64,000 bases of DNA. It comes from Parcubacteria group bacterium Gr01-1014_8 (GTDB lineage: Bacteria; Patescibacteriota; Minisyncoccia; Phycocordibacterales; UBA2100). This document shows, piece after piece, positions 5,455 through 37,466 of the stretch (positions within the stretch are counted from its first letter, which is position 1; each line of letters starts with the position of its first letter). The notes under the pieces are model-generated. The model worked only from the letters and a program-made list of their open reading frames with translations, had not been told where the DNA came from and ran no database searches. The stretch is from positions 288,001 through 352,000 of the forward strand of contig VMGC01000001.1 of NCBI GenBank assembly GCA_007376385.1, given 5' to 3'. The translations under genes and the position numbers were made by a program.

Positions 5455-6581
5455 ACATTGTATACATCACAAGTGCGCGTATACCGTCAGAACGGGCCTA
5501 TGGCTATGCCATCACCAAACTCTGCGAAGAGTGGGGGAAGGCGGGGCATGATGTGAGGTTGATATTGCCGGAGAGGGAACATGGTCTGCAAGATGACCTG
5601 TTCGAATACTACAAACTCGAGAGGACATTCACCATAGAAAAGATTTCGGCAAGTGACTGGATTGGAAAAAGTCTGTCGACATCGCGCGTTCACTTTGCCC
5701 TCGATCTTCTTGCGTTCGTGATCTCGTTGCGAACAGTACGATTTGATGCGGACACAGCCATCTACACCCGTGAATATCTGCTTGCGCTCACACTTCCGGC
5801 ACGGAATCTTTTTTTGGAAGTGCACACGGTACACAGCAAAGGTTTTTTGTTTCGCCGTGCATTAGGACGGGTGCGCGGGATCGTTGCGATAAGTGAGGGC
5901 GTGAAAAAGGAACTGGTCGCTCTTGGTGTCGCAGAAGAAAAAATTAAGGTTGCTCATGACGGGGTCGATCTGGATCCATTTGCACAGGCTCCGGCGGACA
6001 GAAGCGTCTGGAGGCAGTTTGGTGTCGAGCCGTCACAAAATGTTGTGTTATACGCCGGTCATTTTTACGAGTGGAAAGGAGCCGATACCTTGGCGGTCGC
6101 TGGAAAAATGCTCCCATCTGATGTGCACACGGTCCTAGTAGGAGGTGTAGATAACGAGCTGCGCGACTTTAGAGAGAAATATGCCGCTTCAAATGTGCAC
6201 ATCGCGCCGCATCGATCACGCGCAACGATACCTGTCTTACTGAAAAGCGCGGATGTGCTCGTTCTTCCGAACAGCGCAAAGGCGGAAATCTCGCGCTCAC
6301 ACGCCTCGCCGCTGAAGCTGTTCGAATACATGGCCGCGGGCGTCGCAATTGTTGCGTCCGATGTGCCTAGTCTGCGTGAAGTACTTTCTGAGGATACAGC
6401 TTTTTTCTTTAAGGCCGATGACTCGAATAGTCTCGCGGAGGTTATCGGCCGCGTGCTCAAATTGCCGGACGACGCACATTCCAGAGCTGAACAGGCAAAG
6501 AAAAAGGCGGACACATACACATGGCGTGGTCGCGCTGCCGACATCGCACAATTTCTCGACAGACTGGGGAGCAAGGGATAG
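5451..6581 (+). CDS. glycosyltransferase family 4 (GT-B)
   Basis: 376 aa. C-terminal E-x7-E type motif (ASPLKLFEYMAAGVAIVASDVPSLREVL) typical of GT4/GT1 retaining transferases. Confidence 0.8.
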   Translation: MNIVYITSARIPSERAYGYAITKLCEEWGKAGHDVRLILPEREHGLQDDLFEYYKLERTFTIEKISASDWIGKSLSTSRVHFALDLLAFVISLRTVRFDADTAIYTREYLLALTLPARNLFLEVHTVHSKGFLFRRALGRVRGIVAISEGVKKELVALGVAEEKIKVAHDGVDLDPFAQAPADRSVWRQFGVEPSQNVVLYAGHFYEWKGADTLAVAGKMLPSDVHTVLVGGVDNELRDFREKYAASNVHIAPHRSRATIPVLLKSADVLVLPNSAKAEISRSHASPLKLFEYMAAGVAIVASDVPSLREVLSEDTAFFFKADDSNSLAEVIGRVLKLPDDAHSRAEQAKKKADTYTWRGRAADIAQFLDRLGSKG

Positions 6582-6591
6582 CATAGACTTT

Positions 6592-8403
6592 ATGCGGTTT
6601 TTTAGGCGCCTCGGGAATATGTTCCGCCTGCTTCGGCGGGCATATGGTGCATATTCGACGCAAATAGCGGCGCTTGCTGCCCTGGGCTTTTTGGGCGGAT
6701 TGCTTGAAGGCATCGGCATCAATGCGGTTGTCCCGCTTCTGACATTCATTTTTACGGAGTCCGCGCAGGCGTTTGACCCGATCTCGAATATTCTGCGGTC
6801 AGTGTTCACATTCATCGGCATTGATTTCGCCCCCAAATATTTGCTCGCGTTCATCGTGATCATGTTCCTTGCGCGCGCTGCGGTGATGTACGCGCTCTCG
6901 TATATTCAGACGGTCATATCATTCAACTATGAGCGAGATACGCGAGTACGCGTGTTCGAAACCCTCCTGCGTTCTTCGTGGTCGCATCATCTGGCAAGGA
7001 AATTCGGACATCTGGAGACTATCATCATGATAGACGCTCCGGCGAGCACGAATCTTCTCCGCAAGTTGAGCAATCTCATCACGCTCGCGACGGGGCTCAT
7101 AATGTATCTCATTGTGGCGTTCAATATTTCTCCTGCCGTTACATTTCTGACGTTCGCCGTCGGTGTATGCGGGCTCCTTTTCTTCAGATACTTTTTGACG
7201 ATGATTCACGCGAGAAGTTCGGAGCGTGTCGCGCTCAACAAAGAAGTCGCCCACTACATGGGGGAATACGCGGCGGGCGCGAAGGCGATAAAGGCATCCG
7301 GCACTGAGGAGGTTGTCGCGGAAAGCGGTGTGGATCTTTTTTCCCGTTTAAGGAATATTTCTGTAAGCATATCCCTTGTACAGCAGGTAGCCGTACTCAT
7401 TATTCCGCCGGCCGGGATTCTATATATCGCGCTCATATTCGGTGTTGCGTACCGTACTGATTTCATCCAGCTTGCCGCGCTTCCCGCTATTATTTACCTC
7501 ATTTACCGCATCTCGCTGTACGCTCAGCAAGGGCAGGACCACCTGCAGGGTATTCAGGAACTCGTCCCTCATTTGCAGAGCGTGCTCGCGTTCGAGGAGA
7601 AATCGCGACAGAAAGAAGAGCACATCGGCGGAGATAAATTATTCGCCTTCCACAAGGAACTTCGATTTGACGATGTTCATTTTTCCTACGACGACGGTCG
7701 CGAAGCGCTAAAAGGCGTGTCATTTACTGTTAAGGGGCGCTCAACGGTTGGTATTGTCGGTCCTTCCGGTGCAGGGAAGACGACATCGGTCGATTTGATG
7801 CTGAGGCTCTTGGAGCCGACGAACGGGGCGATCACACTCGATGGTGTAAATGTGCGCGATATTTCACTGCAATCATGGCGCGCAAAAACGGGGTATGTAC
7901 CACAAGAACCGTTCCTGTTGCACGATACGATACGGAACAACGTTCTTTTTCAATTTAAAGGAAACGGAGGACAAGACGCGCTTTCCGATGCAGATGTGTG
8001 GCACTTTCTCAAGATGGCGGATGCGGAAGATTTTGTTCGCGCGATGCCGGAGGGGCTCGATTCAATGGTCGGGGACAGAGGCGTAACACTTTCAGCAGGG
8101 CAGAGACAAAGGCTCGTCATTGCGCGTGAGCTTGCTCGAAAGCCGGAACTCCTCATTCTCGACGAGGCGACGAGCGCGCTCGATAGTGAATCAGAGGCGC
8201 GTTTGCAGAAGGTCATCCAGAAACTCAAGGGTTCGGTTACTATCGTCATTATTGCCCATCGTCTCTCGACTATCTTGGAGTCGGATAAGCTTGTTGTTCT
8301 AAAAGAAGGCACGGTAGCTGAGCCAATAGCCAGCCCTGAAGCGATGCTTCGTACCGCCGGCTCGTATTTAAGCCACATTTTCTCGCTGAATAAATCACTA
8401 TGA
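6592..8403 (+). CDS. ABC exporter, fused permease plus ATPase (MsbA/PglK-like; candidate lipid-linked glycan flippase)
   Basis: Track ORF 6349..8403 overlaps the GT4 gene, so it is trimmed to the ATG at 6592 (MRFFRRLGNMF...). Has an N-terminal 6-TM domain, Walker A GPSGAGKTT, signature LSAGQRQRLVIAREL, and Walker B LLILDEATSALD. Confidence 0.8.
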   Translation: MRFFRRLGNMFRLLRRAYGAYSTQIAALAALGFLGGLLEGIGINAVVPLLTFIFTESAQAFDPISNILRSVFTFIGIDFAPKYLLAFIVIMFLARAAVMYALSYIQTVISFNYERDTRVRVFETLLRSSWSHHLARKFGHLETIIMIDAPASTNLLRKLSNLITLATGLIMYLIVAFNISPAVTFLTFAVGVCGLLFFRYFLTMIHARSSERVALNKEVAHYMGEYAAGAKAIKASGTEEVVAESGVDLFSRLRNISVSISLVQQVAVLIIPPAGILYIALIFGVAYRTDFIQLAALPAIIYLIYRISLYAQQGQDHLQGIQELVPHLQSVLAFEEKSRQKEEHIGGDKLFAFHKELRFDDVHFSYDDGREALKGVSFTVKGRSTVGIVGPSGAGKTTSVDLMLRLLEPTNGAITLDGVNVRDISLQSWRAKTGYVPQEPFLLHDTIRNNVLFQFKGNGGQDALSDADVWHFLKMADAEDFVRAMPEGLDSMVGDRGVTLSAGQRQRLVIARELARKPELLILDEATSALDSESEARLQKVIQKLKGSVTIVIIAHRLSTILESDKLVVLKEGTVAEPIASPEAMLRTAGSYLSHIFSLNKSL

Positions 8404-9128
8404 AAAAGAGGATAGCTATCATTCAGGCGAGAATGAATTCCTCTAGAATGCCCGGGAAAATTCTGAAGGAGATCTCGGGAAAACCGGCGCTGTGGCATCT
8501 CATAGAGAATATCCGACCCTCGAAACAGCTCACCGATATTATCGTCGCGACCACAATGAATACGGCGGATGACGTGATAGCCGATTTTACGAAGGAGAAT
8601 GCTGTCACCTGTTTCCGCGGAAGCGAGGAAAACGTACTAGAGCGATTTTATGAGGCAGCGAAGTCTATCGGTGTCAAGGATTCTGACATCATCGTACGAA
8701 TTACCGCCGATGATATATTCATGGATCCGTATATCATTGATGCGCTCGTCACTTTTTTTGATTCCACGTATCCATACTATAGATTGGTGTCCAATAGCTT
8801 CAAGCCGGGTTTTCCGTATGGTCTTTATTTCGAGCTATTTGATTTCGCTTCTCTGAAAGATGCTTATCGTAATGCGACCACGGAATCCCAAAAAGAGCAT
8901 GTGACGCCGTACATCCGCGAACACGAGGAAACATTTCCTGCTATAGCAATCGAATCAAAAGGAGTCGATCTTTCGGATGTGTATCTTTCGATTGATACAG
9001 TGGAGGACCTCGAGCGAAATCGCCGCATCATCGAGCGGTTGGAGTCGCAGAATAAAAAACATCCGTATCTCTTTACAGATGTAGTCACCGCATATAAGGA
9101 TTTAAAATTGAGCAGGGCATCTGTATGA
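8400..9128 (+). CDS. acylneuraminate cytidylyltransferase-like (CMP-nonulosonic acid synthetase; SpsF/PtmB/PseF family)
   Basis: 242 aa. N-terminus RIAIIQARMNSSRMPGKILKEISGKPALWHLIEN is the CTP_transf_3 signature. Paralogous to the ORF at 17071-17835. Confidence 0.7.
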   Translation: MKKRIAIIQARMNSSRMPGKILKEISGKPALWHLIENIRPSKQLTDIIVATTMNTADDVIADFTKENAVTCFRGSEENVLERFYEAAKSIGVKDSDIIVRITADDIFMDPYIIDALVTFFDSTYPYYRLVSNSFKPGFPYGLYFELFDFASLKDAYRNATTESQKEHVTPYIREHEETFPAIAIESKGVDLSDVYLSIDTVEDLERNRRIIERLESQNKKHPYLFTDVVTAYKDLKLSRASV

Positions 9129-10183
9129 GCCCCATTAAAAATAACTCGCCCAAGCCCTCCGGGCGCGCTAGCGCGGGCGCTATTTCTAACGGGGCGAGAA
9201 TTGGCGTTGTGGGAAACGGTTCGATGGGGAGGCGGAGAATAAAACATTCTCAGATGTATGGATATACAGACATCACGGGTTGGGATATTAGGTCGGACAG
9301 GCGAAAGGAGGTCGAATCAAAGTTCGGAATACAAACGGTGAAGAGTCAGAAGGATTTTGAGAACTCAAAGTTCGATGCGCTATTCATTTGTGTGCCTCCG
9401 GCCGAACACTATTACTACATGAAGCTTGCGGTGAAGAACGGTTGGAATTTTATGGTGGAGAATCCAGTGTGGCATAAGGTGAAGGGACTCGATGTGCTTC
9501 AAAGGGAAGTGAAGAAGAAAAAACTGGTGGCGAACGTCAGTTGCAACGTCAGGTTCCTGAAAGCGACGCAGAGGATAAAGCAGCTTGTTCGAGATGATGT
9601 CATTGGACCGATATTGTCGGGCGTAGCCGAAGTCGGCGAATATTTGCCTGATTGGCATCCGTACGAACCGTATACCGATTACTATCCGTCCAAAAAAGAA
9701 ATGGGCGGCGGTATCGACGCGATGTGTGATCTCGACTGGCTTGTCGATATTTTCGGCGATATCCGCAGGATGAACTGTGTGTATTCGAAAAAGTCGAGCC
9801 TAAAAATCAATACCTATGACATCATTGATTTCATTCTAGAGTTCAAGTTAGGACCGCAGATAGTTCTGCATACCGACATGCTTCAATCGCCGTACGGCAG
9901 AGCGGTGAAGCTCATAAGTGAGCGCGGTGTTATCGTGTGGGAATACAAAGAACAGATAGTAAAATATTATGATCGTCGAACCAAGAAGTGGACAAAGTTC
10001 GACGAATCGGGTTCGAGAGTTAATTTCGACAATAACATCACGACGACATGGGCTGAGCAGATGTATATGGACGATTCATTTCACTTCTTCAAGTGTCTGA
10101 AAGGCGAGGCGAAGCCGCTTAACACTATAGAAAGCAATTCGAAACTTCTGAAACAGCTTCTCAAAGCCATCGACTACGCCTGA
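9125..10183 (+). CDS. Gfo/Idh/MocA-family NAD(P)-dependent oxidoreductase (PtmF-like)
   Basis: 352 aa. N-terminal Rossmann segment ARIGVVGNGSMG and ...DALFICVPPAEHYYYMKLAVKNGWNFMVENP pattern of the Gfo/Idh/MocA fold. Confidence 0.6.
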   Translation: MSPIKNNSPKPSGRASAGAISNGARIGVVGNGSMGRRRIKHSQMYGYTDITGWDIRSDRRKEVESKFGIQTVKSQKDFENSKFDALFICVPPAEHYYYMKLAVKNGWNFMVENPVWHKVKGLDVLQREVKKKKLVANVSCNVRFLKATQRIKQLVRDDVIGPILSGVAEVGEYLPDWHPYEPYTDYYPSKKEMGGGIDAMCDLDWLVDIFGDIRRMNCVYSKKSSLKINTYDIIDFILEFKLGPQIVLHTDMLQSPYGRAVKLISERGVIVWEYKEQIVKYYDRRTKKWTKFDESGSRVNFDNNITTTWAEQMYMDDSFHFFKCLKGEAKPLNTIESNSKLLKQLLKAIDYA

Positions 10184-10184
10184 T

Positions 10185-11606
10185 ATGAGGATACTTGTCG
10201 TATATCCGAGGGCAGTGCCGGAGATAGAGATATTTTTTAATGACCTCAAACAAGCGGGGCACGAAATCGTCTATTGGGTCGGGGAACATAGCGGAGAGAA
10301 GAACACCCCTAAAGGCGCGATATTTCACGATCACTATGATGCGTGGGACGGCAAATCGGCTGAAGTATTCAAGAACGTCACATTCCCGCCCGCTTCTTCA
10401 GAGTTGGTAGAAAGATTGTACCGTACAGAGTCAGTTGTGCTTTCTATGATGGATAAGCATTACGATTCGGCGCCCGTGAATGAGCGAAAGCATATCTATT
10501 ATTCGATGTTGTCCTACTGGTCGGGAGTGTTGGATATGCTCAAGCCCGATGCGGTCGTCTTCGCTATAGTTCCTCACACGGTATACAACTACATTCTTTA
10601 TGAGCTCGCGCGTCTGCGCGGCCTTTTTACGCCGTGCTTTGAAGATACGTATGTTGCGTCACGCCTTTTATTTTATAAGAATTTCTGGGAAGGAAGTGAG
10701 GAACTACGTGATGCGCTCGGGCGTGCGTCCGATGCGAAGCTATCCGACTTGTCCGGAGATTTAGCGGCATATTTGAAACGATTTAAAGAGACCGAGGCAC
10801 AGCCGGCGTATATGGCCCAGCAAAAAAGACTGGGCGCGGGTTGGGGGCTCTTTCGCCACAGAGTCAGGATAGCGCGCGCTGGTCTGCTTTCCGGGAGGAC
10901 GTTCGTACTCGCGTGGAGATTTTTCAAGCGGTTGTTTGTCAGAAATCTTGCACACGAATATAGAGGAGTCGTGTCTGCGCCGGACATGTCACGGCCATAT
11001 GTATATTTTCCTCTCAATATGCAGCCCGAGCGCTCAACCTCGCCGCAGGGCGGTGTTTTTCAGGATCAGATCCTCGTTGCGGAAACAGTTGCCGCATCGT
11101 TGCCTGATGGCTGGATGCTTGTGATAAAAGAACATCCTTCGCAGTGGTGGTTGCGTGGGAAAACGCGTTACTCGAGCGCACGCTACCGCGGCTATTATCA
11201 GCGTCTTGCGCGTATACCGAACACGGTTCTCGTAGATACATTCACCAACACGTTCGAGTTGACGCGCGGTGCGCGGGCTGTCGCCGTCGTAACCGGAACT
11301 CCGGGGTGGGAAGCGATTCTGCGCAGTATTCCCGTGATCGTGTTCGGATACCCGTGGTATCGGGATTGCCCCGGAACTCTGCGAGTAGAAAATGTGGATG
11401 AGTGCAGGGTAGCGCTTGCGAGAATCGAGTCCGGGGGTCTAAAGCTGACTACTGACGGCGTGATTGCTTTTTTGAAAGCGCTTGACGCTGTGTCAGTACG
11501 TGCTTTTATTCACGATCTGATCGGGCAGACCGAACATATGAGTGAAGCGGAATCCTTTCGAAATATTGCTCTGAAGCTGAACACAGAACTCCGCGCGAAT
11601 ACATAA
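10185..11606 (+). CDS. putative capsule-synthesis (KpsC/KpsS/LpsZ, PF05159-like) CMP-ulosonic-acid glycosyltransferase; paralog of 25971-27467
   Basis: 473 aa. C-terminal motif AVAVVTGTPGWEAILRSIPVIVFGYPWY is shared with the paralog (VTVISGTPGWEAALLKKPVITFGHVFY). It resembles the G(F/W)EAL...KPV..G...Y motif of Kdo-transferase-like capsule synthesis proteins, but family assignment is from memory only. Confidence 0.4.
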   Translation: MRILVVYPRAVPEIEIFFNDLKQAGHEIVYWVGEHSGEKNTPKGAIFHDHYDAWDGKSAEVFKNVTFPPASSELVERLYRTESVVLSMMDKHYDSAPVNERKHIYYSMLSYWSGVLDMLKPDAVVFAIVPHTVYNYILYELARLRGLFTPCFEDTYVASRLLFYKNFWEGSEELRDALGRASDAKLSDLSGDLAAYLKRFKETEAQPAYMAQQKRLGAGWGLFRHRVRIARAGLLSGRTFVLAWRFFKRLFVRNLAHEYRGVVSAPDMSRPYVYFPLNMQPERSTSPQGGVFQDQILVAETVAASLPDGWMLVIKEHPSQWWLRGKTRYSSARYRGYYQRLARIPNTVLVDTFTNTFELTRGARAVAVVTGTPGWEAILRSIPVIVFGYPWYRDCPGTLRVENVDECRVALARIESGGLKLTTDGVIAFLKALDAVSVRAFIHDLIGQTEHMSEAESFRNIALKLNTELRANT

Positions 11607-11608
11607 CT

Positions 11609-12589
11609 ATGCGGGCATCATCGAACAAACAATCAGCTGCGTTGGAAAAAGCAGCTCTTTCCAAAAAGAAGGCGAGACGATCGCCTGACAAGAAGGACAG
11701 GGAGATAGCGGAAGAAATTCTGCGAATTCACTCAAAACTCAAGAAGGTTTTTATGGCCGACGGCGAGTGGAAGTGGATCAATGAGAACAAAAAAAAGAAT
11801 TATATAAAAGCGTTGCGCGATAACAATCCGGATGCTCTCGCGGCGATACTCGCAAATCTTTTTCAGGAAGACGCTTCCTACGGATTTTACACATACGAGA
11901 CAGATTCATTACAGGCGGGTATACGTGCCGACCTTGCCGTATGGAACGAATTCGTGGAGCAGAATGACATATCCCCGCTCTCGATGCCTGATGTGGGGAA
12001 TCCGCACGGTATTGTGGTCGGGGGAGTGCTCGTTGCGCCTTTCCAGCCGCGCCATGATTATTGCGCTCAGAAGATACATTCTCTCGGTCCGAAAACCGTT
12101 CTCGAAATAGGAGGCGGATACGGCGGGCTGGCGCTTCAATTGTCACGACGTTCGAATGTTAAATATATAGACTGCGATTTGCCGGAAACTCTGTATGTCG
12201 CGTACTACTTTCTCAAAAAAGCGGGATTAAACGTGAAATGGGCCATAGATACATGGCCGGATGCCCCGATTGTTCTTGTTCCTGCGAATCGAAAGAAGTT
12301 AATTCAAAAGGCAGATCTGGTGTTTAACGGCCTTTCCTTTTCCGAGATGGGAAGAGAAACGGTCGACGGGTATTTCAAATTCATAAACAACGTATGGAAG
12401 CCCCGATATATTTTTCATCAGAACAGCAACATCCTTCTTTTTCCCAATTCACCGCGGCATATCGAAGTTCTCGCGAGGGATTTTCCCATAGGTAAAATCT
12501 ATCGCGAGATCTATCGTGCAATTTCTCCATGGCAGGGAGGCAGTGGCAGGTATCGTGAGTATCTCTACGAGAGGAATCTCGAACGTTGA
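11609..12589 (+). CDS. class I SAM-dependent methyltransferase (putative sugar O-methyltransferase)
   Basis: 326 aa. VLEIGGGYGGLALQL is the SAM motif I. Lies within the nonulosonic acid module. Confidence 0.55.
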   Translation: MRASSNKQSAALEKAALSKKKARRSPDKKDREIAEEILRIHSKLKKVFMADGEWKWINENKKKNYIKALRDNNPDALAAILANLFQEDASYGFYTYETDSLQAGIRADLAVWNEFVEQNDISPLSMPDVGNPHGIVVGGVLVAPFQPRHDYCAQKIHSLGPKTVLEIGGGYGGLALQLSRRSNVKYIDCDLPETLYVAYYFLKKAGLNVKWAIDTWPDAPIVLVPANRKKLIQKADLVFNGLSFSEMGRETVDGYFKFINNVWKPRYIFHQNSNILLFPNSPRHIEVLARDFPIGKIYREIYRAISPWQGGSGRYREYLYERNLER

Positions 12590-12616
12590 TTTTTTTATTG
12601 ACGACGTAGAGCGAGA

Positions 12617-12644
12617 GAAGTGAATGTGTACTCACATTCACTTC
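12617..12644. repeat. perfect 12-bp stem hairpin (GAAGTGAATGTG-TACT-CACATTCACTTC)
   Basis: Read directly in the sequence, about 28 nt after the methyltransferase stop codon. Confidence 0.5.
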
Positions 12645-12722
12645 CGGGCCGAGGAGTCAAAATAGGTTCAATACCGCACGGCTTGCCGCGCGTCAGAACG
12701 AGCGAAGCGAGTTCCAAAAATA

Positions 12723-12759
12723 CCTCGGGGCTTTGCCCCGAGGAACCTTTATTTTCCGA
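12723..12759 (+). terminator. candidate rho-independent terminator (CCTCGGGGC-TTT-GCCCCGAGG followed by AACCTTTATTTTCC)
   Basis: 9-bp GC-rich stem plus a U-rich tail downstream of the +strand operon. The tail overlaps a 21-mer that recurs at 48244-48264. Confidence 0.45.
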
Positions 12760-12858
12760 CGCAAACATATTTGCATTTGAGAGAGAGAGGGGGGAGTGGT
12801 GTGCCACTCGAAATGTCCTGCATTGACTGGTGAGCTTTTTTAATGTAAAAAATGACAA

Positions 12859-13632
12859 ATGTATCGTAAGAATTCGTATGCACTTACAGAGAGCGTAGCG
12901 TTCATTACAGGTGCTCTCGGCCAGATCGGACGGGAGATAGTCATGCGATTCTTGGAAGACGGCGCGTTTGTCTATATCGCCGACAAAGGGAAAAAGATCA
13001 GTGACGATCTCGCAAAAAAACTGAAGCGCGCGAAATTTGATAACTACCGGTACGTCACGATTGACGTGACGAGCGAGGAGTCGATACGAGCCGTGTATAG
13101 GAAACTGACGCGTCCCGTTGATGTACTTGTCAATTGTGCCGGCATTGGCGTATATACGTCGTTTGAGTCGCGAACTTCCGACGAACTCGATACCGTGTAC
13201 GCGGTAAACCTTAAGGGCACTATCCTGTGCTCCAAGATATTTTCAGCAGGCATGATGAAGAGGAAAGGGGGTCGGATCATCAATATCGGTTCTATATACG
13301 GGATTACAACGCCGGATTTTTCAATGTACGGCGATTCCGGTAGGAATTCTTCTGAGATCTACGGCGCGACGAAAGCCGGCATTATCCAGACGACGAAATA
13401 TCTTGCGGCATACCTTGCGCCGCACAATATTCTGGTGAACTGCGTAAGTCCAGGCGGCGTCTTTAATCGCCAGAAATCCTTTTTCGTCAGACGATATAAA
13501 AAGAGGACGCCGCTTCAGCGAATGGCGGCGCCAGACGATCTTACGGGTGTTATCGCGTTTCTCGCTTCGGATGAGGCGGCGTATATCACGGGACAGAATA
13601 TCGCGGTCGACGGAGGCTTTACGATATGGTGA
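12859..13632 (+). CDS. short-chain dehydrogenase/reductase (SDR; PtmA/FabG-like)
   Basis: 257 aa. TGALGQIGREI Rossmann motif, NCAGIG, and the catalytic YGATKAGI (Y-x3-K). Confidence 0.8.
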   Translation: MYRKNSYALTESVAFITGALGQIGREIVMRFLEDGAFVYIADKGKKISDDLAKKLKRAKFDNYRYVTIDVTSEESIRAVYRKLTRPVDVLVNCAGIGVYTSFESRTSDELDTVYAVNLKGTILCSKIFSAGMMKRKGGRIINIGSIYGITTPDFSMYGDSGRNSSEIYGATKAGIIQTTKYLAAYLAPHNILVNCVSPGGVFNRQKSFFVRRYKKRTPLQRMAAPDDLTGVIAFLASDEAAYITGQNIAVDGGFTIW

Positions 13633-16028
13633 AGAAAGCCCGTAAAAAAGTATATGTGCTTGGAGCGGGAATGAGCGGGCTTGCGACCGCACTTCGGCTT
13701 GCAGAGCTCGGCGTCGATACAACCCTCGTTGAAAAAGAAAAGAAGGTCGGCGGACTCGCGGGAAGTTTCAAATGGCGCGATTTCAAGAATCTTGATTACG
13801 GACCGCATATCTACCACACACCCGACAAGAAACTGGAAGAGATATGGAAGAAGGAGTACGGCGATCTGTTCCATCAAAATGAGTTCTGGGGAAAGAACGT
13901 TAAAGGTGAGAAGTTCGACCGGTATTTTGACTACCCACTGTCATTCGAATCACTAAAAAAATTTCCTTCTGACGTGAGAAAAAAGATCATGCATGAACTG
14001 TCTCATCTCGACGAGACAAAGCTCGCAAAGGCGAAAAGTTATGCCGATTACGTACGGGAACTCGTCGGTCCCACGCTGATGGAGTATTTTTTTATCCGTT
14101 ACCCTCAAAAATTATGGGGGGTTTCCATAGATAAGATGACGGCAAACTGGGCCCCCAAGCGTGTTACATTCAGGACGAAAGACGAACATTTTCATGCAGG
14201 TCAATGGAGCGCGGTCGGGAAATACGGGTCAGGCAGGATACTGGAGAGAATGGCCGATAGATTCAAAAAAAAAGGTGGCACACTTATGCTCGGGAGTCCC
14301 GTCATGGCGATCGAGCACTCAAACGGCATCATCAAGAACATCGTACTTGACGAAAAGAAAATCAGACTTTCGTCCGACGATGCGGTTGTTTCGACGATAC
14401 CGATACCTGTCATGGCCGAGTATCTTGGCGTTAGAAATACCTTGAAATATCGTGGAGCGAAAATTGTATTTGTCGCGCTCAACAAGGAAGAGGCAATCCC
14501 CGACAAGTTCAATTTTCTTTACTACGATGCACCGGAAATAATTTTTCATCGGGTGAGTGAGCAGAAGAAATTCTGCGCGCTTGGGTTTCCAAAGAACAAA
14601 ACTGTGCTTTCGTGTGAGATCGCATACACAAAAGGGGACACGCTGGATACAACCGACGAGAAAGAGATACTGGATCGAGCTGTGAGCAGTCTCATACGTG
14701 TCGGGCTCGCCAAAAAAAATGAGGTTGAGGATGCGATGATGGTCTCCCTTCCGTACGTGTACCCTCTCTTGGTTCGCGGAAGCGAACACGAACTCGTTGA
14801 TGTGCGCGGACGTCTCGGCGCATTCAAGCAGCTCTATTGCATCGGCACCGGGGGCGATTTCCGGTACGATGACCTGCAGATACTCAATTTACGAGGGTTT
14901 GATCTCGCTGAGCGGCTTGCGTCACCTGAACTGGACGAAGATGCGGGAGAAGCTGTCAAAAAAGATTTTACGACCGGCTTTAACAACACGTTCGCGCTCG
15001 GCCGCCATACAGTTTCTGAATCCGCGCCCGCGTTCATCATTGCCGAGATCGGGCTCAACCATAACGGGAGCATGAAGCTCGCTATGGAGCTTATCGATAG
15101 GGCGGTTGAGTGCGGTTGTTCGGCCGTGAAGTTTCAGACGTACAGCGCGGGGAACAGAGTGTCGAAGGAAGTGAAGGGCAATCGATACGCCGAGAAGCTT
15201 GTAGATATGGAAGAAACAACATTCGATATGCTCAAGCGTCTGGAATTCACTACGAAAGATCACGTGCGCCTGTTTGCGTACGCCAAGCAAAAAGGAATCG
15301 AGATCTTTTCAACACCGTTCGACTTTGAAAGCGTCGATCTTCTGGAATCCCTCGGGTGCGACTTCTATAAGATTTCGTCGATGGATCTTGTGAATCTGCC
15401 GTTGATACAAAAAGTCGCAAGGACAGGGAAGCCGATGATCGTTTCGACGGGAATGTCAACGCTCGGTCAGGTCGAGGATGCCGTCAATACCATCCGGGAA
15501 ACCGGCAATAAAAATCTTGTCCTCCTGCACTGCGTCTCAATGTATCCCGCGGCGGCACAGGACGTAAACATGGCAGTTATGGGAACTCTACGGCGGGCAT
15601 TCGGAACGCCAGTCGGTTTTTCCGATCACACTATCGGTCTTTCGGCCGCGACTGTTGCGCTCGCACTCGGCGCACGTGTCATCGAACGGCACTTTACTCT
15701 CGATAGATTTATGGAGGGGCCCGATCACATTCTGTCGTCTGACCCGGATGAAATGAGAGAGCTTGTGCGTCTCAGTCATCTTATTCCCGTCATCATGGGA
15801 AAGCCAGAGAAAGTAATTCTTCCGAGCGAAACGGAAACCGTCAATAGGTTCAAGAAATGTCTGTACGCACGGAAAGACATACGTCGGGGCCAGAAAATAA
15901 CAATGGATGCGCTTGCCATAAAGGGTCCGGGAGGAGGGATATTGCCGAAATATGCCAACGTTATTGTCGGGAGGACGGCTCGAAACAGTATCAAGAGGGA
16001 TCACCCCATCCAGTGGGGCGATGTATGA
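13626..16028 (+). CDS. fusion protein: N-terminal FAD-dependent oxidoreductase (UDP-galactopyranose-mutase/amine-oxidase-like) plus C-terminal NeuB-family nonulosonic-acid synthase with SAF domain
   Basis: 800 aa. N-terminus VYVLGAGMSGLATALRLAELGVDTTLVEKEKKVGGLAGSF dinucleotide-binding motif and DYGPHIYHT (compare Glf KYGAHIFHT). From about aa 455, PAFIIAEIGLNHNGSMKLAMELIDRAVECGCSAVKFQTY plus a C-terminal SAF-like tail form the NeuB/PseI/LegI signature. Confidence 0.7.
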   Translation: MVKKARKKVYVLGAGMSGLATALRLAELGVDTTLVEKEKKVGGLAGSFKWRDFKNLDYGPHIYHTPDKKLEEIWKKEYGDLFHQNEFWGKNVKGEKFDRYFDYPLSFESLKKFPSDVRKKIMHELSHLDETKLAKAKSYADYVRELVGPTLMEYFFIRYPQKLWGVSIDKMTANWAPKRVTFRTKDEHFHAGQWSAVGKYGSGRILERMADRFKKKGGTLMLGSPVMAIEHSNGIIKNIVLDEKKIRLSSDDAVVSTIPIPVMAEYLGVRNTLKYRGAKIVFVALNKEEAIPDKFNFLYYDAPEIIFHRVSEQKKFCALGFPKNKTVLSCEIAYTKGDTLDTTDEKEILDRAVSSLIRVGLAKKNEVEDAMMVSLPYVYPLLVRGSEHELVDVRGRLGAFKQLYCIGTGGDFRYDDLQILNLRGFDLAERLASPELDEDAGEAVKKDFTTGFNNTFALGRHTVSESAPAFIIAEIGLNHNGSMKLAMELIDRAVECGCSAVKFQTYSAGNRVSKEVKGNRYAEKLVDMEETTFDMLKRLEFTTKDHVRLFAYAKQKGIEIFSTPFDFESVDLLESLGCDFYKISSMDLVNLPLIQKVARTGKPMIVSTGMSTLGQVEDAVNTIRETGNKNLVLLHCVSMYPAAAQDVNMAVMGTLRRAFGTPVGFSDHTIGLSAATVALALGARVIERHFTLDRFMEGPDHILSSDPDEMRELVRLSHLIPVIMGKPEKVILPSETETVNRFKKCLYARKDIRRGQKITMDALAIKGPGGGILPKYANVIVGRTARNSIKRDHPIQWGDV

Positions 16029-17065
16029 AGAGTCCCGTCATAGAGAATATTTTACGAAAGATACGCGCCGGTTCCAAACGCCGCGCGACAGGCTTTGTCA
16101 TCGGAAACACCTCCGGAGTTTTCAAACAAGGCCGATTGTATCCGATTCCTATCCGGGAGACGGGTACACTCATTTACGGCGGTGTGATCGTTCGTGATGT
16201 CGCTACCGCCGGAGCTGTCGCGCGCATGATAGACGGCAAGACGGACTACGTATTTGTTGATGCGGAAAAGAAGATCGAGACAATGTATCATGGTAAAAAC
16301 GATGTCGGCAACATCGAGCGGATGGTTCGCGGCGTCATATTGAAATCGAAGATAATTACCTACAAAGGCAACGACCTGACAAAAGACGCAATCGACTTTC
16401 TTCTCGGTCAGCTTATCGTTGATATTGGCGGAACGACTGTCGCCGTGATCGGATGCGGGAATCTCGGTGCAAAAATAGCGCTTAAATTGGTGGAGCGAGG
16501 AGCTCATGTCCGTGCGTACCGGAGGGACAAAGGGAAGCTGCGGAAAATTGTGACGGGTCTCAATCAGATAAAATCAGAACACACGCTTTCGTCCATCTGG
16601 GCGGCGCGGAGTATAGCGGATGCGTGTAAAGGTGCGAGCGCAGTTATCGCAACAGCAGACAGCCAGGGCATTATCAAACACGATCATTTGAAATTCATGA
16701 ATATCGCCCGCCCGCCCATCCTGATCGATGCGGGAAAAGGCTGTTTTTCGGATGATGTAGTGAGAAGTGATGCATACGCCATATACCGTGCCGATGTGTC
16801 CATCGCGCAAAAGCATATTTTTTCGGCGCTTCTTGAGACGAAATTACACTATGGGCGATCGATAGGACGGCGCGTGCTCGAGGATGGCAATGTGGGCCTC
16901 GTGTCGCTCGGGCTCCTTGGAAAAAAAGGGGAGGTCATCGTGGATGATATTGATTCCCCGCGGCGCATTATCGGTGTCGCTGACGGGAGGGGCAAGTTGA
17001 TGAAGAATGTCGGGAGTCAGAAGAAAGTTGTTGAGAAAATACGGCGCATGTTTAATGCATCATAA
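16025..17065 (+). CDS. NAD(P)-binding Rossmann-fold protein (putative dehydrogenase; family unclear)
   Basis: Track ORF 15857..17065 trimmed to the ATG at 16025 (ATGA overlap with the upstream stop). Contains a TVAVIGCGNLGAKIALKL dinucleotide-binding motif. Confidence 0.4.
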   Translation: MKSPVIENILRKIRAGSKRRATGFVIGNTSGVFKQGRLYPIPIRETGTLIYGGVIVRDVATAGAVARMIDGKTDYVFVDAEKKIETMYHGKNDVGNIERMVRGVILKSKIITYKGNDLTKDAIDFLLGQLIVDIGGTTVAVIGCGNLGAKIALKLVERGAHVRAYRRDKGKLRKIVTGLNQIKSEHTLSSIWAARSIADACKGASAVIATADSQGIIKHDHLKFMNIARPPILIDAGKGCFSDDVVRSDAYAIYRADVSIAQKHIFSALLETKLHYGRSIGRRVLEDGNVGLVSLGLLGKKGEVIVDDIDSPRRIIGVADGRGKLMKNVGSQKKVVEKIRRMFNAS

Positions 17066-17070
17066 TTTCT

Positions 17071-17835
17071 ATGTCTCGGCACCCTCGCGTTATCGCAATC
17101 ATTCAGGCACGCATGTCCTCAACACGCATGCCGGGCAAAGTGCTGCTTGACCTTTTACCCGGCGTATCAGTCGTGGAATACATGCTTCGGCGTGTTTCAG
17201 CAAGTACAGAAGTCGATACGAGCATTGTTGCGACCACTGATAATCCAAGGGATGCCGTGCTGGTCGAGAACATGAAGGCGATAGGGCAGTCTTTCTTTGT
17301 AGGCAGTGAAGGGGATGTGCTAGACCGATACTACAATGCAGCAAAAAAATACGGAGCCAAGGCAGGAGACATGATAGTGCGCTTAACCTCTGATTGTCCA
17401 GTCATCGATCCCAAAGAAATCGATGCGACGGTCAGATTTTATCGTCAACATGATTTTGACTACGCCTCAAACAATCTTGAGCCATACTCATTCCCTGACG
17501 GCATGGATACTGAAGTATTTTCTTTCGAGGCCCTGGAAAAGGCGTGGAACGATGCGACCAGTCAGTCGCATCGCGAGCACGTCACTTTTTATTTCTGGAA
17601 AAATCCGCAGATCTTCAAGATAGGACAGTATGTGAATCCCAAACGAAATCAGGACGAGTATCGGCTTACACTCGATTACCCATCTGACTACGTGTTACTG
17701 AAAAAAGTTGCGGAATATTTCTCGCCGCGCATGGATTACTCCATGCAGGAAATCATTGATTTTCTGGATTCTCATCTTGACGTGAAGGCTCTGAATGCGG
17801 ATGTTGCGCGCAATGTGCACTTCAAGACGGCATGA
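17071..17835 (+). CDS. acylneuraminate cytidylyltransferase-like (candidate CMP-pseudaminic acid synthetase, PseF-like)
   Basis: 254 aa. VIAIIQARMSSTRMPGKVLLDL... is paralogous to 8400-9128. Lies upstream of the pseB/pseC/pseI-like genes. Confidence 0.65.
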   Translation: MSRHPRVIAIIQARMSSTRMPGKVLLDLLPGVSVVEYMLRRVSASTEVDTSIVATTDNPRDAVLVENMKAIGQSFFVGSEGDVLDRYYNAAKKYGAKAGDMIVRLTSDCPVIDPKEIDATVRFYRQHDFDYASNNLEPYSFPDGMDTEVFSFEALEKAWNDATSQSHREHVTFYFWKNPQIFKIGQYVNPKRNQDEYRLTLDYPSDYVLLKKVAEYFSPRMDYSMQEIIDFLDSHLDVKALNADVARNVHFKTA

Positions 17836-17874
17836 CGCGACGAACAAGAAAGTTGGTGATATGCTCGGATAATT

Positions 17875-19221: not shown

Positions 19222-19303
19222 TAGCGTGCGTTGTTTTTTCGGTGTCGACTCCCAACTTGTTTTCGTTGACCCGCCGGCGAAGAGGCGTTACAGTGGGGCG
19301 CTC

Positions 19304-21423: not shown

Positions 21424-21479
21424 TTACTCATGGGAGCGGGCTATAGTGGGGTGATAATGTGTGGAAGGGACACAATCGT

Positions 21480-22391: not shown

Positions 22392-22396
22392 GTGAG

Positions 22397-23565: not shown

Positions 23566-23591
23566 AAGGAAGCCGTGATAGCATCGCCATA

Positions 23592-25963: not shown

Positions 25964-25970
25964 TGTTTGT

Positions 25971-36510: not shown

Positions 36511-36514
36511 CTGT

Positions 36515-37465: not shown

Positions 37466-37466
37466 C

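What the first reader, a model, noticed from the sequence alone, without database searches (positions are those of the whole stretch)
8400..17065. A second, non-Pse nonulosonic-acid module (ptm/legionaminic-like)
Apart from the PseB/C/H/I set further downstream, this segment encodes its own set of enzymes. These are a CMP-transferase (8400-9128), a Gfo/Idh/MocA oxidoreductase, a KpsC/S-like putative transferase, a methyltransferase, an SDR and a NeuB-family synthase (fused, 13626-16028). The Gfo/Idh/MocA plus SDR plus cytidylyltransferase combination is reminiscent of Campylobacter ptm/legionaminic-acid-derivative loci. One island carrying two distinct NeuB pathways, each with a cognate cytidylyltransferase and transferase paralog, suggests two different nonulosonic acids (or one heavily modified derivative) on the cell surface.
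Basis: partly seen in the sequence, partly recalled or inferred. Interest (0 to 1): 0.55.

Follow-up and report, generated by a model that had tools for sequence, protein, structure and literature searches.

The report
Flavoenzyme-fused NeuB sugar-acid cassette
Next to an ordinary pseudaminic-acid gene set, this candidate-phyla-radiation bacterium carries a second sialic-acid-like pathway that is not the legionaminic/ptm type; it is built around an uncharacterised fusion of a UDP-galactopyranose-mutase-like flavoenzyme with a NeuB synthase, and that fusion recurs across many phyla, including abundant marine bacteria.

Summary
The genes are real, but one is mis-described and the module is mis-bounded. 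The 800-aa ORF at 13626-16028 is not an SDR-NeuB fusion. It is a UDP-galactopyranose-mutase (UGM)-like FAD domain fused to NeuB+SAF, and the SDR is a separate gene (12859-13632).

This NeuB domain keeps every catalytic and metal residue. It falls in its own clade, apart from the window's true PseI (23592-24641), so a second non-Pse pathway is supported. "ptm/legionaminic-like" is not: there is no LegB/C/H/G or NeuC, and the PtmA and NeuB equivalog cut-offs are not met.

Among 71 intact-fusion loci from CPR, Nitrospirae, Elusimicrobia, Omnitrophota, SAR11/SAR86/SAR116, Arcobacter and archaea, 59 have a 346-aa NAD(P)-binding protein directly adjacent. Most also have a CTP_transf_3 gene nearby, often with an SDR and a class-III aminotransferase. 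Pse genes are rarely present. The conserved cassette in the window is therefore 12859-19221, with the second cytidylyltransferase (17071-17835) as the syntenic partner.

My inferred mechanism: an NDP-(6-deoxy)hexose is opened or released by the flavin domain in place of NeuC/PseG, condensed with PEP, tailored, CMP-activated, and transferred by a KpsS-like enzyme. The chemistry is untested. I found no literature on this fusion.

The parts
13626..16028 (+). 800-aa fusion. The N-terminal FAD domain (about residues 1-430) belongs to the UDP-galactopyranose mutase family. A linker (435-449) joins it to a C-terminal NeuB+SAF synthase (470-800).
   Evidence: Pfam gives NeuB E 7.6e-90, Amino_oxidase, NAD_binding_8, GLF and SAF. 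The FAD-domain profile against PDB matches UGM over its full length (4dsg, E 2e-24). The AF2 model has pLDDT 86; Foldseek matches PseI/NeuB (TMt 0.86-0.91) and UGM (E about 2e-23). The fusion is conserved in more than 120 clusters at 90% identity and in 79 genome loci.
16025..17065 (+). 346-aa NAD(P)-binding two-domain dehydrogenase-like protein ('NADb'), the obligate partner of the fusion.
12859..13632 (+). Classical short-chain dehydrogenase (PRK09186-like), a separate gene that overlaps the fusion start by 7 nt.
   Evidence: adh_short_C2 E 5.8e-47. It scores 188 bits on PRK09186 (cut-off 255) and 127 bits on PtmA (cut-off 350). A homolog occurs in 42 of 71 loci, 33 of them within 3 kb of the fusion.
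17071..17835 (+). SpsF-type cytidylyltransferase, copy 2. It is the syntenic partner of the cassette and the probable CMP-activating enzyme.
   Evidence: CTP_transf_3 E 1.4e-27. Best PDB match is 6OEW. In the tree it groups with cytidylyltransferases lying directly downstream of NADb in CPR loci where blastp found no Pse homologs. Three CTP_transf_3 subfamilies together are found near the fusion in most loci.
17875..19221 (+). Class-III (glutamate-1-semialdehyde-aminomutase-like) aminotransferase, usually paired with cytidylyltransferase copy 2.
   Evidence: Aminotran_3 E 1.1e-44. PDB matches are GSA aminomutases and aminoglycoside C-6' aminotransferases. It occurs in 19 of 71 loci, normally next to the cytidylyltransferase, and is fused to it in L067.
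10185..11606 (+). KpsS/KpsC-like (Capsule_synth, HP-motif) putative CMP-ulosonic-acid transferase, copy 1.
   Evidence: PF05159, 34.5 bits. It is 40% identical to the second copy (25944-27467) across the KEHP region. It lies directly upstream of the fusion in Kaiserbacteria loci L006 and L043, and in the same order as the window in L005.
11609..12589 (+). NanM-type sugar O-methyltransferase.
   Evidence: TIGR04371, 75 bits against a cut-off of 44. Co-located with the cassette in L005, L007, L036 and L074.
8400..9128 (+). SpsF-type cytidylyltransferase, copy 1. Its assignment is open: it could serve Pse or a second activation step.
   Evidence: CTP_transf_3 E 8e-34. It is 41% identical to copy 2. 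It is an outlier in the cytidylyltransferase tree, closest to a CTP-AKR fusion in L056.
9125..10183 (+). Gfo/Idh/MocA oxidoreductase, an accessory gene.
   Evidence: PF01408 E 8e-12. A homolog was seen in only 5 of 71 loci by blastp, although other Gfo/Idh/MocA genes appear in several Pfam-annotated contexts.
12723..12743 (.). 9-bp, GC-rich hairpin (CCTCGGGGC-TTT-GCCCCGAGG) in the 269-bp gap.
   Evidence: It is the strongest terminator-like hit in 8-20 kb. The sequence was read.
6349..8403 (+). MsbA/PglK-type ABC exporter. The true start is probably downstream of 6349, because the ORF overlaps the GT4 gene.
   Evidence: ABC_tran and ABC_membrane. An ABC exporter is found in 24 of 71 loci and is often adjacent to the fusion.
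2123..3839 (-). RmlB (dTDP-glucose 4,6-dehydratase) and an RmlA-like nucleotidyltransferase, a candidate precursor supply.
   Evidence: TIGR01181, 413 bits against a cut-off of 365; the RmlA model scores 238 bits, below its cut-off. Homologs of the dehydratase at 41% identity or more, each with the nucleotidyltransferase homolog beside it, flank the cassette in 13 loci, for example L053, L056, L057, L062 and L078.
19226..24641 (+). Context, not part of the cassette: PseB, PseC, an aldo-keto reductase, a GNAT (weak PseH match), a small probable methyltransferase, and PseI.
   Evidence: PseB scores 396 bits, just below its cut-off of 408. PseC scores 459 (cut-off 423) and PseI 475 (cut-off 340). 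No PseG was found.

Best explanation
Window 12859-19221, together with the transferase and methyltransferase at 10185-12589, is one copy of a widespread, uncharacterised NeuB-dependent ulosonic-acid cassette. It is distinct from the Neu5Ac, legionaminic and pseudaminic pathways.

**Core (shown by conservation).** The core is a UGM-like flavoenzyme fused to NeuB, an adjacent NAD(P)-dependent dehydrogenase-like protein, and an SpsF-type cytidylyltransferase. A classical SDR and a class-III aminotransferase are usually present too.

**Proposed route (inferred, not shown).**
1. A nucleotide-activated hexose is supplied, plausibly a 6-deoxyhexose from the RmlA/RmlB-type genes that often flank the cassette.
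2. The flavin domain binds it. That domain keeps the UGM residues that hold the NDP and form the flavin-C1 adduct.
3. The domain expels the nucleotide and presents the ring-opened or free aldose. This would replace the NeuC/LegG/PseG hydrolase, which I did not find next to most copies.
4. The fused NeuB domain condenses the aldose with phosphoenolpyruvate into a nine-carbon 2-keto-3-deoxy acid.
5. The NAD(P) protein, the SDR and the aminotransferase tailor it by an oxidise-then-transaminate or epimerise sequence.
6. The cytidylyltransferase makes the CMP-sugar.
7. A KpsS/KpsC-like HP-motif transferase adds it to a surface glycan, which is O-methylated and handled by the MsbA/PglK-type ABC exporter.

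The neighbouring Pse genes make a second, ordinary nonulosonic acid.
For: **A distinct and functional NeuB**
- The fused domain keeps E25, K53, Q55, T110, K129, S132, S154, Y186, S213, H215, E234, H236 and D247 (NmNeuB numbering). All are invariant or nearly invariant in 51 homologs.
- The fused domains form a single clade, separate from PseI.
- The domain scores below both curated equivalog cut-offs.
- The substrate-contacting Arg314 is Lys in the fused family. It is Arg in NmNeuB, SpsE, CjPseI and the window PseI.

**A UGM-like flavin domain**
- The profile matches UGM over its full length (E 2e-24).
- These residues are conserved and invariant: the GPHxxH motif, Y159/W164 (Kp Y155/W160), R179 (R174), R309 (R280), Y379 (Y314), Y414 (Y349) and D416 (D351).
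- Foldseek returns UGM at E about 2e-23.
- The R179 loop has low pLDDT, as expected for UGM's mobile loop.

**Cassette conservation**
- NADb is directly adjacent in 59 of 71 loci.
- The SDR is present in 42 of 71 loci and the class-III aminotransferase in 19.
- Cytidylyltransferases from three subfamilies are found near the fusion in most loci.
- PseB is present in only 7 of 71 loci.

**No hydrolase**
- No Epimerase_2 or PseG-type gene appears in 8 Pfam-annotated contexts, or among the window ORFs I scanned.

**A candidate precursor supply**
- RmlA/RmlB-type pairs sit next to the cassette in 13 loci, including cultured Arcobacter iocasae.

**Precedents (from my own knowledge, not tested here)**
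- The E. coli O52 dTDP-fucofuranose pathway uses RmlA, RmlB, a reductase and a UGM homolog.
- Class-III aminotransferases act on sugar aldehydes in aminoglycoside pathways. PDB matches to C-6' aminotransferases appear.
Against: - No step of the chemistry has been tested. The substrate, the product and even the carbon number are unknown.
- A mutase-type flavoenzyme acting as a nucleotide-releasing step has no characterised precedent that I know of.
- By fold alone, protoporphyrinogen oxidases score about as well as UGM.
- The two weakest UGM alignment segments, around R280 and around Y349/D351 of the Klebsiella enzyme, were not individually significant. The T. cruzi UGM alignment does cover both regions within one significant domain.
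- RmlA/RmlB neighbours occur in only a minority of loci.
- Arcobacter has an Epimerase_2 gene three genes downstream of the cassette.
- In Nitrospiraceae the fusion and NADb stand alone, with no cytidylyltransferase nearby.
- The cytidylyltransferase plus class-III aminotransferase plus AKR set also travels with Pse-type clusters elsewhere, for example in Legionella Sg6 (PMC3694923) and loci L022 and L028. Their assignment to this cassette rather than to the Pse set in this window is therefore not certain.
Confidence: 0.4

Rival explanations
1. It is a legionaminic-acid (ptm/Leg-type) module. The fused NeuB would be a LegI, the SDR a PtmA and the cytidylyltransferase a LegF/PtmB.
For: The best NCBIfam model for the NeuB domain is NeuB_NnaB (375 bits), and the domain groups nearer to SpsE/NmNeuB than to PseI. 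One homolog is named 'N,N'-diacetyllegionaminate synthase' by JGI. The SDR has a weak PtmA match.
Against: The NeuB score is below the NeuB_NnaB cut-off of 399.65. The PtmA score is 127 bits against a cut-off of 350. No LegB, LegC, LegH or LegG/NeuC is in the module, no Epimerase_2 match was returned for any window ORF I scanned, and there is no PtmE/PtmF-type GDP-GlcN supply. The position of the N-acetyl-contacting Arg314 is Lys. The cassette's defining partners, the UGM-like domain and NADb, have no counterpart in Leg pathways.
Confidence: 0.1
2. There is one pathway, not two. In this window the flavin domain would replace the missing PseG, freeing the UDP-sugar made by PseB/PseC/PseH. The two synthases and the tailoring enzymes would then make one heavily modified Pse-type derivative, or two close variants from a shared precursor.
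For: No PseG and no canonical PseF were detectable in the window. The genes are interleaved in one co-directional block after the hairpin: the cytidylyltransferase and class-III aminotransferase sit between NADb and PseB, and the AKR sits between PseC and the GNAT. The AKR also travels with the cassette elsewhere. Loci L022 and L028 place the cytidylyltransferase, the aminotransferase and PseI beside the fusion.
Against: Most loci with the cassette have no Pse genes within 10 kb: PseB is found in 7 of 71 and PseI-like genes in about 8. The cassette must therefore have its own substrate in general. Two synthases are not needed for one sugar.
Confidence: 0.2
3. The flavin domain is a genuine NDP-sugar pyranose-furanose mutase that makes a furanose donor for the same glycan. 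In this reading it is fused to NeuB only for co-expression, and NeuB takes a free sugar from elsewhere.
For: The full set of UGM active-site residues is conserved. An RmlA/RmlB/reductase/UGM-homolog arrangement is the known dTDP-fucofuranose logic (my own knowledge). Stand-alone relatives of the FAD domain (420-480 aa, about 30% identity) are common.
Against: The fusion and its 4-bp-overlapped NADb partner are kept together across bacteria and archaea, including loci with no glycosyltransferase nearby (L085). That argues for coupling within one pathway. The fused FAD domains form a subfamily well separated from the stand-alone proteins.
Confidence: 0.2
4. The second NeuB is a recent, decaying duplicate of PseI with no function of its own.
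For: None beyond the presence of two NeuB homologs in one island.
Against: The two are only 33.6% identical and fall in different clades. All catalytic residues are invariant in 51 homologs. The architecture is conserved in 79 genome loci across many phyla.
Confidence: 0.01

Closest known systems
NeuB-family nonulosonic acid synthases: N. meningitidis NeuB (1XUZ), B. subtilis SpsE (1VLI) and C. jejuni PseI (8H2C)
   Same: The TIM-barrel plus SAF fold matches (Foldseek TMt 0.86-0.91). All PEP-, metal- and catalysis-related residues are conserved. The domain is followed by a CMP-transferase gene, as in every NulO pathway.
   Different: Identity to each reference is 31-35% and the domain forms its own clade. 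It scores below the curated NeuB and PseI cut-offs. Arg314 is Lys, Asn184 is Ser and Glu134 is Asp. It is always fused to an N-terminal flavoenzyme, and no NeuC/LegG/PseG-type hydrolase accompanies most copies.
UDP-galactopyranose mutase (Glf/UGM) and its NDP-sugar mutase relatives, such as E. coli O52 Fcf2 dTDP-fucopyranose mutase (the Fcf2 comparison is from my own knowledge)
   Same: The profile match covers the full length (E 2e-24). The GPHxxH flavin motif, both diphosphate-binding arginines, the tyrosines, and the Trp/Tyr of the nucleotide pocket are conserved.
   Different: Identity is about 17%. The domain is fused to a C-C bond-forming synthase. No mutase activity has been shown, and I propose that it releases the sugar rather than contracting the ring. 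The nearest stand-alone relatives are the uncharacterised PRK07208-type proteins.
Campylobacter ptm/Leg locus (PtmA, PtmB/LegF, LegI and others)
   Same: Both contain an SDR, a CTP_transf_3 enzyme and a NeuB homolog in one surface-glycan island.
   Different: The equivalog cut-offs are not met. LegB/C/H/G and PtmE/F are absent. The window cassette has a UGM-like domain, NADb and a class-III aminotransferase that the ptm locus lacks.
CMP-level tailoring modules of nonulosonic acids, such as A. baumannii aciABCD/aciE, which convert CMP-Leg5Ac7Ac into acinetaminic acids (PMC5595891)
   Same: Short-chain dehydrogenases and other oxidoreductases sit beside the synthase and cytidylyltransferase genes and are predicted to re-configure the nine-carbon acid.
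   Different: I did not test any homology to the Aci proteins. Here the tailoring genes come with their own dedicated synthase instead of acting on a Leg product.
KpsS/KpsC beta-Kdo transferases and the Tannerella BFO_1060-type putative Pse/Leg transferases
   Same: The Capsule_synth C-terminal region with an HP motif is present in 10185-11606 and 25944-27467. A weak BFO_1060 match is seen on 25944-27467 and a faint one on 24638-25963.
   Different: The scores are low. The N-terminal halves are unrelated, and the acceptor and donor are unknown.

Membership tests
NeuB family (PF03102) of PEP-condensing ulosonic acid synthases | A NeuB TIM-barrel domain plus a C-terminal SAF/AFP-like domain | tested here: met
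   PF03102 E 7.6e-90 and SAF E 8e-9. Foldseek matches 8H2C and 1XUU with TMt 0.86-0.91.
NeuB family (PF03102) of PEP-condensing ulosonic acid synthases | The metal ligands His215/His236 and the catalytic or PEP-binding residues Glu25, Lys53, Lys129, Ser132, Ser154, Ser213, Glu234 and Asp247 (NmNeuB numbering) | tested here: met
   All are present (E474, K502, K582, S585, S607, S666, H668, E687, H689, D700) and invariant in 51 homologs.
N-acetylneuraminate / legionaminate synthase equivalog (TIGR03569 NeuB_NnaB) | A score at or above the curated cut-off of 399.65 bits | tested here: not met
   375.2 bits. The domain forms a separate clade from NmNeuB and SpsE.
N-acetylneuraminate / legionaminate synthase equivalog (TIGR03569 NeuB_NnaB) | An Arg314-type residue from the SAF domain that contacts the substrate's 2-acetamido group | tested here: not met
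   This position is Lys766, which is nearly invariant in the fused family. It is Arg in NmNeuB, SpsE, CjPseI and the window PseI.
Pseudaminic acid synthase PseI (TIGR03586) | A score at or above the curated cut-off of 340.25 bits, and placement in the PseI clade | tested here: not met
   The fused domain scores 302.8 bits. The window's other NeuB (23592-24641) scores 475 bits and groups with CjPseI.
Campylobacter ptm / legionaminic acid pathway | LegB (4,6-dehydratase), LegC (aminotransferase), LegH (acetyltransferase) and LegG (hydrolysing 2-epimerase, Epimerase_2) accompany the synthase | tested here: not met
   The module contains none of these genes. No Epimerase_2 match was returned for any window ORF I scanned. 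The LegB and LegC models score only sub-threshold on other genes of the island.
Campylobacter ptm / legionaminic acid pathway | A PtmA equivalog (NF050062, cut-off 350 bits) | tested here: not met
   The SDR at 12859-13632 scores 127 bits. Its best model is PRK09186, at 188 bits against a cut-off of 255.
UDP-galactopyranose mutase superfamily (PF03275 GLF) | An FAD Rossmann GxGxxG motif plus the GPHxxH flavin-N5 region | tested here: met
   G13/G15/G18 and G59-P60-H61...H64 are invariant. They align to Kp UGM G58-P59-H60...H63.
UDP-galactopyranose mutase superfamily (PF03275 GLF) | The two diphosphate-binding arginines (Kp R174 and R280) and the Tyr/Trp/Asp residues of the substrate pocket (Y155, W160, Y314, Y349, D351) | tested here: met
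   The equivalents R179, R309, Y159, W164, Y379, Y414 and D416 are invariant. Caveat: the Kp alignment around R280 and around Y349 was not individually significant. The T. cruzi UGM alignment covers both regions within one domain (E 8e-24).
UDP-galactopyranose mutase superfamily (PF03275 GLF) | Reversible pyranose-furanose interconversion of an NDP-sugar with reduced FAD | not testable with these tools
   This needs an enzyme assay.
CMP-ulosonic acid synthetases (PF02348 CTP_transf_3) | The CTP_transf_3 domain scores above the Pfam cut-off | tested here: met
   Copy 1 scores 117.8 bits and copy 2 scores 97.3 bits, against a cut-off of 22.6. Both are closest to PDB 6OEW.
CMP-ulosonic acid synthetases (PF02348 CTP_transf_3) | Membership of the PseF (TIGR03584) or KdsB equivalogs | tested here: not met
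   The PseF model scores 26.6 bits on copy 1 (cut-off 205.7) and is not listed for copy 2. The KdsB models are all far below their cut-offs.

The most novel reading that the evidence does not exclude
The UGM-like-NeuB fusion and its NAD(P)-binding partner define a fourth route to CMP-activated nine-carbon sugar acids, alongside the Neu, Leg and Pse routes. In this route a nucleophilic flavin, not a hydrolase or hydrolysing epimerase, strips the nucleotide from an NDP-(6-deoxy)hexose and hands the open-chain sugar to the synthase. The product would be a structurally new ulosonic acid, for example a 5-hydroxy, 9-deoxy acid that is aminated later. It would decorate the surfaces of CPR bacteria, SAR11, SAR86, SAR116, Nitrospirae, Omnitrophota, Magnetococcales and some archaea.
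Probability: 0.25. Interest if true: 0.85.

Novelty: new variant of a known kind. Interest (0 to 1): 0.62.

Why it matters
Nonulosonic acids are major surface determinants, involved in phage and host recognition, immune mimicry and cell-cell contact. Only a handful of biosynthetic routes are known.

This cassette is present in ultra-small CPR bacteria, which depend on surface contact with hosts. It is also present in some of the most abundant marine lineages, so an uncharacterised sugar acid may be a common part of environmental cell surfaces.

If the flavin domain really replaces the nucleotide-sugar hydrolase, that would be new chemistry for the UGM family and a new entry point for making unnatural sialic-acid analogues.

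The question can be tested now. Cultured carriers exist: Arcobacter iocasae KX21116 and Rheinheimera sp. YQF-1. The protein pair is small enough for in-vitro reconstitution.

Tried and rejected
- **Literature.** Searches for nonulosonic acids in CPR/Patescibacteria, for FAD-NeuB or UGM-NeuB fusions, and for the class-III aminotransferase plus cytidylyltransferase pair found nothing on this architecture. The only useful leads were a Legionella Sg6 gene table and the acinetaminic-acid tailoring precedent.
- **My first labels for 2123-3839.** I called these genes 'CDP-glucose' enzymes. NCBIfam shows RmlB (above cut-off) and an RmlA-like enzyme instead.
- **A hidden PseG at 22846-23565 or 24638-25963.** The first has only 6 homologs, one with a Methyltransf_25 domain, so it is probably a small methyltransferase. 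The second has only a faint BFO_1060 glycosyltransferase match. Neither looks like PseG.
- **The high-GC tail of the window (54-64 kb).** I checked whether it is an rRNA operon. It has no Rfam or tRNA hits.
- **Fold search of the full fusion.** It added little beyond the profile search, and protoporphyrinogen oxidases score close to UGM by fold alone.
- **The co-occurrence counts.** They use blastp (E < 1e-8, more than 50-60% coverage) against six-frame ORFs. Several loci are truncated, so the counts are lower bounds.
- **The trees.** They are neighbour-joining on BLOSUM distances without bootstrap support.

Full report
**Source and layout.** The 800-aa protein of the window is 100% identical to a protein of 'Parcubacteria group bacterium Gr01-1014_8', on a contig of 407,897 bases, so the window comes from a candidate-phyla-radiation (CPR) genome. 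Positions 1-44.6 kb form one large surface-glycan island that ends at SecA. Nearly all of its genes are on the + strand and tightly packed.

**Gene map of the finding and its surroundings**

| Coordinates | Gene |
|---|---|
| about 6.4-8403 | MsbA/PglK-like ABC exporter |
| 8400-9128 | CTP_transf_3, copy 1 |
| 9125-10183 | Gfo/Idh/MocA oxidoreductase |
| 10185-11606 | Capsule_synth (KpsS/C-like) protein |
| 11609-12589 | NanM-type sugar O-methyltransferase |
| 12590-12858 | 269-bp gap with a strong hairpin at 12723-12743 |
| 12859-13632 | classical SDR |
| 13626-16028 | 800-aa fusion protein |
| 16025-17065 | 346-aa NAD(P)-binding protein ('NADb') |
| 17071-17835 | CTP_transf_3, copy 2 |
| 17875-19221 | class-III aminotransferase |
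| 19226-24641 | PseB, PseC, aldo-keto reductase, GNAT, a small unknown ORF, PseI |
| 24638-25963 | unknown 441-aa ORF |
| 25944-27467 | second Capsule_synth-like protein |

**Checking the observation.** The 13626-16028 ORF is not 'SDR fused to NeuB'. Its N-terminal 430 residues match Amino_oxidase, NAD_binding_8 and GLF, and match the uncharacterised NCBIfam group PRK07208. Residues 470-800 match NeuB+SAF. The SDR is the separate gene just upstream. The duplication claim holds: there are two NeuB homologs, two cytidylyltransferases (41% identical) and two Capsule_synth-like transferases (40% identical across a KEHP-containing region).

**Is the second NeuB distinct and functional?** Yes.
- The stand-alone gene at 23592-24641 scores 475 bits on the PseI equivalog, whose cut-off is 340.
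- The fused domain scores 375 bits on NeuB_NnaB (cut-off 399.65) and 303 bits on PseI (cut-off 340.25), so it meets neither.
- I built a neighbour-joining tree with N. meningitidis NeuB, B. subtilis SpsE and C. jejuni PseI, whose sequences I transcribed from the PDB alignments. In it, 72 FAD-fused NeuB domains form one clade next to SpsE/NmNeuB. The window PseI groups with CjPseI (45% identity). The two window proteins are 33.6% identical to each other.
- All NmNeuB metal, PEP and catalytic residues are present and invariant in 51 homologs.
- Three pocket positions differ consistently: Asn184 is Ser, Glu134 is Asp, and Arg314 is Lys. Arg314 contacts the substrate acetamido group (my own knowledge; the PDB holds R314A and R314K mutant entries). 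It is Arg in all three references and in the window PseI.

**What the flavin domain is.**
- A profile of 24 FAD domains matches UDP-galactopyranose mutases over their full length (T. cruzi 4dsg, E 2e-24; K. pneumoniae 3gf4, E 4e-24). Other flavoenzymes match only at the dinucleotide-binding motif.
- The alignments place family-invariant residues on the UGM active-site set. The GPHxxH motif is H61/H64. Y159 and W164 correspond to Kp Y155 and W160. R179 corresponds to R174 and R309 to R280. Y379 corresponds to Y314, Y414 to Y349 and D416 to D351.
- The AlphaFold model has pLDDT 86.2 and pTM 0.75. Its low-confidence stretches are the linker (435-449) and the loop that carries R179. UGM's corresponding arginine sits on a mobile loop (my own knowledge).
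- Foldseek finds NeuB/PseI for the C-terminal half and UGMs for the N-terminal half (E about 2e-23). Protoporphyrinogen oxidases score almost as well by fold alone.
- In a search of 1.84 billion cluster representatives, the closest relatives of the FAD domain are other fusions of about 800 aa. Stand-alone proteins of 420-480 aa appear only at about 30% identity.

**The conserved cassette.** The fusion is found in more than 120 clusters at 90% identity and in 79 genome loci. These come from:
- CPR lineages, Anaerolineales, Nitrospiraceae, Nitrospina, Elusimicrobia, Omnitrophota, Planctomycetes and Terriglobia;
- Magnetococcales, Zeta- and Gammaproteobacteria, Leptospira, SAR11, SAR116, SAR86 and Prochlorococcus;
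- cultured Arcobacter iocasae and Rheinheimera sp. YQF-1;
- Nitrososphaerales and Methanosarcinales archaea.

I compared the window proteins by blastp with six-frame ORFs of the 71 loci that hold an intact fusion ORF.

| Window protein | Loci with a homolog (of 71) | Note |
|---|---|---|
| NADb | 60 | directly adjacent in 59 |
| SDR | 42 | 33 within 3 kb of the fusion |
| class-III aminotransferase | 19 | usually beside a cytidylyltransferase |
| ABC exporter | 24 | |
| PseB | 7 | |

CTP_transf_3 proteins of three subfamilies (found in 22, 15 and 17 loci respectively, with some overlap) lie near the fusion in most loci. In about 14 loci the cytidylyltransferase is fused to a very divergent second NeuB-like domain.

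In the cytidylyltransferase tree, the window's copy 2 groups with those lying immediately downstream of NADb in CPR loci where blastp found no Pse homologs within 10 kb (L008, L010-L012, L020). Copy 1 is an outlier.

The conserved unit in the window is therefore 12859-19221, beginning just after the hairpin. The Capsule_synth-like gene sits directly upstream of the fusion in Kaiserbacteria loci (L006, L043), and L005 repeats the window's order. It and the methyltransferase are therefore plausible downstream users of the product.

**What is absent.** Eight Pfam-annotated contexts from distant taxa contain no Epimerase_2 (NeuC/LegG) or PseG-type gene. No such match was returned for any window ORF I scanned. 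Two caveats apply. Arcobacter has an Epimerase_2 gene three genes beyond the cassette; a UDP-sugar dehydrogenase gene lies upstream in the same locus, so it could belong to a WecB/WecC-type pair (my inference). In one Nitrospiraceae genome the fusion and NADb stand alone among unrelated genes.

**Possible precursor supply.** A 4,6-dehydratase homolog (at least 41% identical to the window's RmlB) and a nucleotidyltransferase homolog flank the cassette in 13 loci. In the window these are RmlB (413 bits, cut-off 365) and an RmlA-like enzyme at 2123-3839. In Arcobacter iocasae the cassette is compact: RmlA-like, 4,6-dehydratase, class-III aminotransferase, SDR, fusion, NADb, methyltransferase, cytidylyltransferase.

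**Interpretation.**

*Shown:*
- a second, intact NeuB that is neither Pse-type nor of the Neu/Leg equivalog;
- its obligatory fusion to a UGM-family domain;
- a conserved cassette with NADb, a cytidylyltransferase and an SDR, which occurs independently of Pse genes.

*Inferred:*
- the flavin domain binds an NDP-sugar and, through the UGM-type flavin-C1 adduct, removes the nucleotide and supplies the acyclic or free aldose to NeuB, taking the place of NeuC/LegG/PseG;
- NADb, the SDR and the class-III aminotransferase tailor the product. The aminotransferase's PDB relatives include aminoglycoside C-6' aminotransferases, and tailoring at the CMP-sugar level by short-chain dehydrogenases has been proposed for acinetaminic acids (PMC5595891);
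- cytidylyltransferase copy 2 activates the product, and a KpsS-like transferase installs it.

*Rivals:*
- a Leg/ptm-type pathway, which is poorly supported;
- a single merged pathway in which the flavin domain stands in for the PseG missing from this window. This is possible here but cannot be general, because most loci lack Pse genes;
- a true furanose-forming mutase that is merely co-expressed with NeuB.

The cytidylyltransferase plus class-III aminotransferase plus AKR trio also accompanies Pse-like sets elsewhere, in the Legionella Sg6 LPS cluster (PMC3694923) and in loci L022 and L028. Which cytidylyltransferase serves which acid in this window therefore remains open.

**Novelty.** Databases call these proteins 'N-acetylneuraminate synthase family protein', 'FAD-dependent oxidoreductase' or 'sialic acid synthase SpsE/protoporphyrinogen oxidase'. 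I found no paper describing the fusion, or nonulosonic acids in CPR bacteria, in the searchable library. I rate it a new variant of a known kind, namely nonulosonic-acid biosynthesis. It is of moderate-to-high interest because of its breadth, its unusual enzyme logic and the availability of cultured carriers.

Noticed in passing
L001/L002 13472-15223; also L015, L023, L034, L037, L047, L051, L083: In about 14 related loci the cytidylyltransferase that follows NADb is fused to a second, very divergent NeuB-like domain (21-29% identity to the window NeuB domains). These domains form their own clade. Their function is unknown, and the window has no such fusion.
   Followed up: partly
L067 (CTP_transf_3 + class-III aminotransferase) and L056 (CTP_transf_3 + aldo-keto reductase): Further gene fusions link the cytidylyltransferase to the class-III aminotransferase or to the AKR. 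This suggests that these enzymes act on, or next to, the CMP-activation step.
   Followed up: no
L085 10001-13489 (Nitrospiraceae UBA2166); also L016 and L018: The fusion and NADb stand alone among thiamine, glycine-cleavage and Sel1-repeat genes, with no other sugar genes within 10 kb. The pair may be self-sufficient, or the product may not always be a glycan building block.
   Followed up: no
window 19226-24641: The Pse set lacks a recognisable PseG and a canonical PseF. The ORF between the GNAT and PseI (22846-23565) has only 6 database homologs and looks like a small methyltransferase.
   Followed up: partly
window 24638-25963: This 441-aa ORF has no Pfam match and only a faint BFO_1060 glycosyltransferase match (E 0.18). 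It may be a third ulosonic-acid transferase-like gene next to the second Capsule_synth-like gene.
   Followed up: no
window 54000-64000: GC rises from about 0.48 to 0.55-0.56 and the GC skew changes sign. Only short ORFs without Pfam matches are present, and the region follows an HTH_17 (excisionase-like) protein at 51321-52274. There are no rRNA, tRNA or Rfam hits. This may be foreign or mobile DNA.
   Followed up: partly
window 34689-44614: The rest of the island carries a PMT_2/ArnT-like membrane glycosyltransferase, two GT2 enzymes, an asparagine-synthase-type amidotransferase, two methyltransferases and a Wzy_C/O-antigen-ligase protein with TPR repeats. A similar Wzy_C-TPR protein and SecA also follow the cassette in a Paceibacterota relative (L087).
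   Followed up: no
L078 5997-15075 (Arcobacter iocasae KX21116, NZ_CP090177.1): A cultured organism with a complete genome carries a compact eight-gene version of the cassette. It is a practical system for identifying the sugar.
   Followed up: partly
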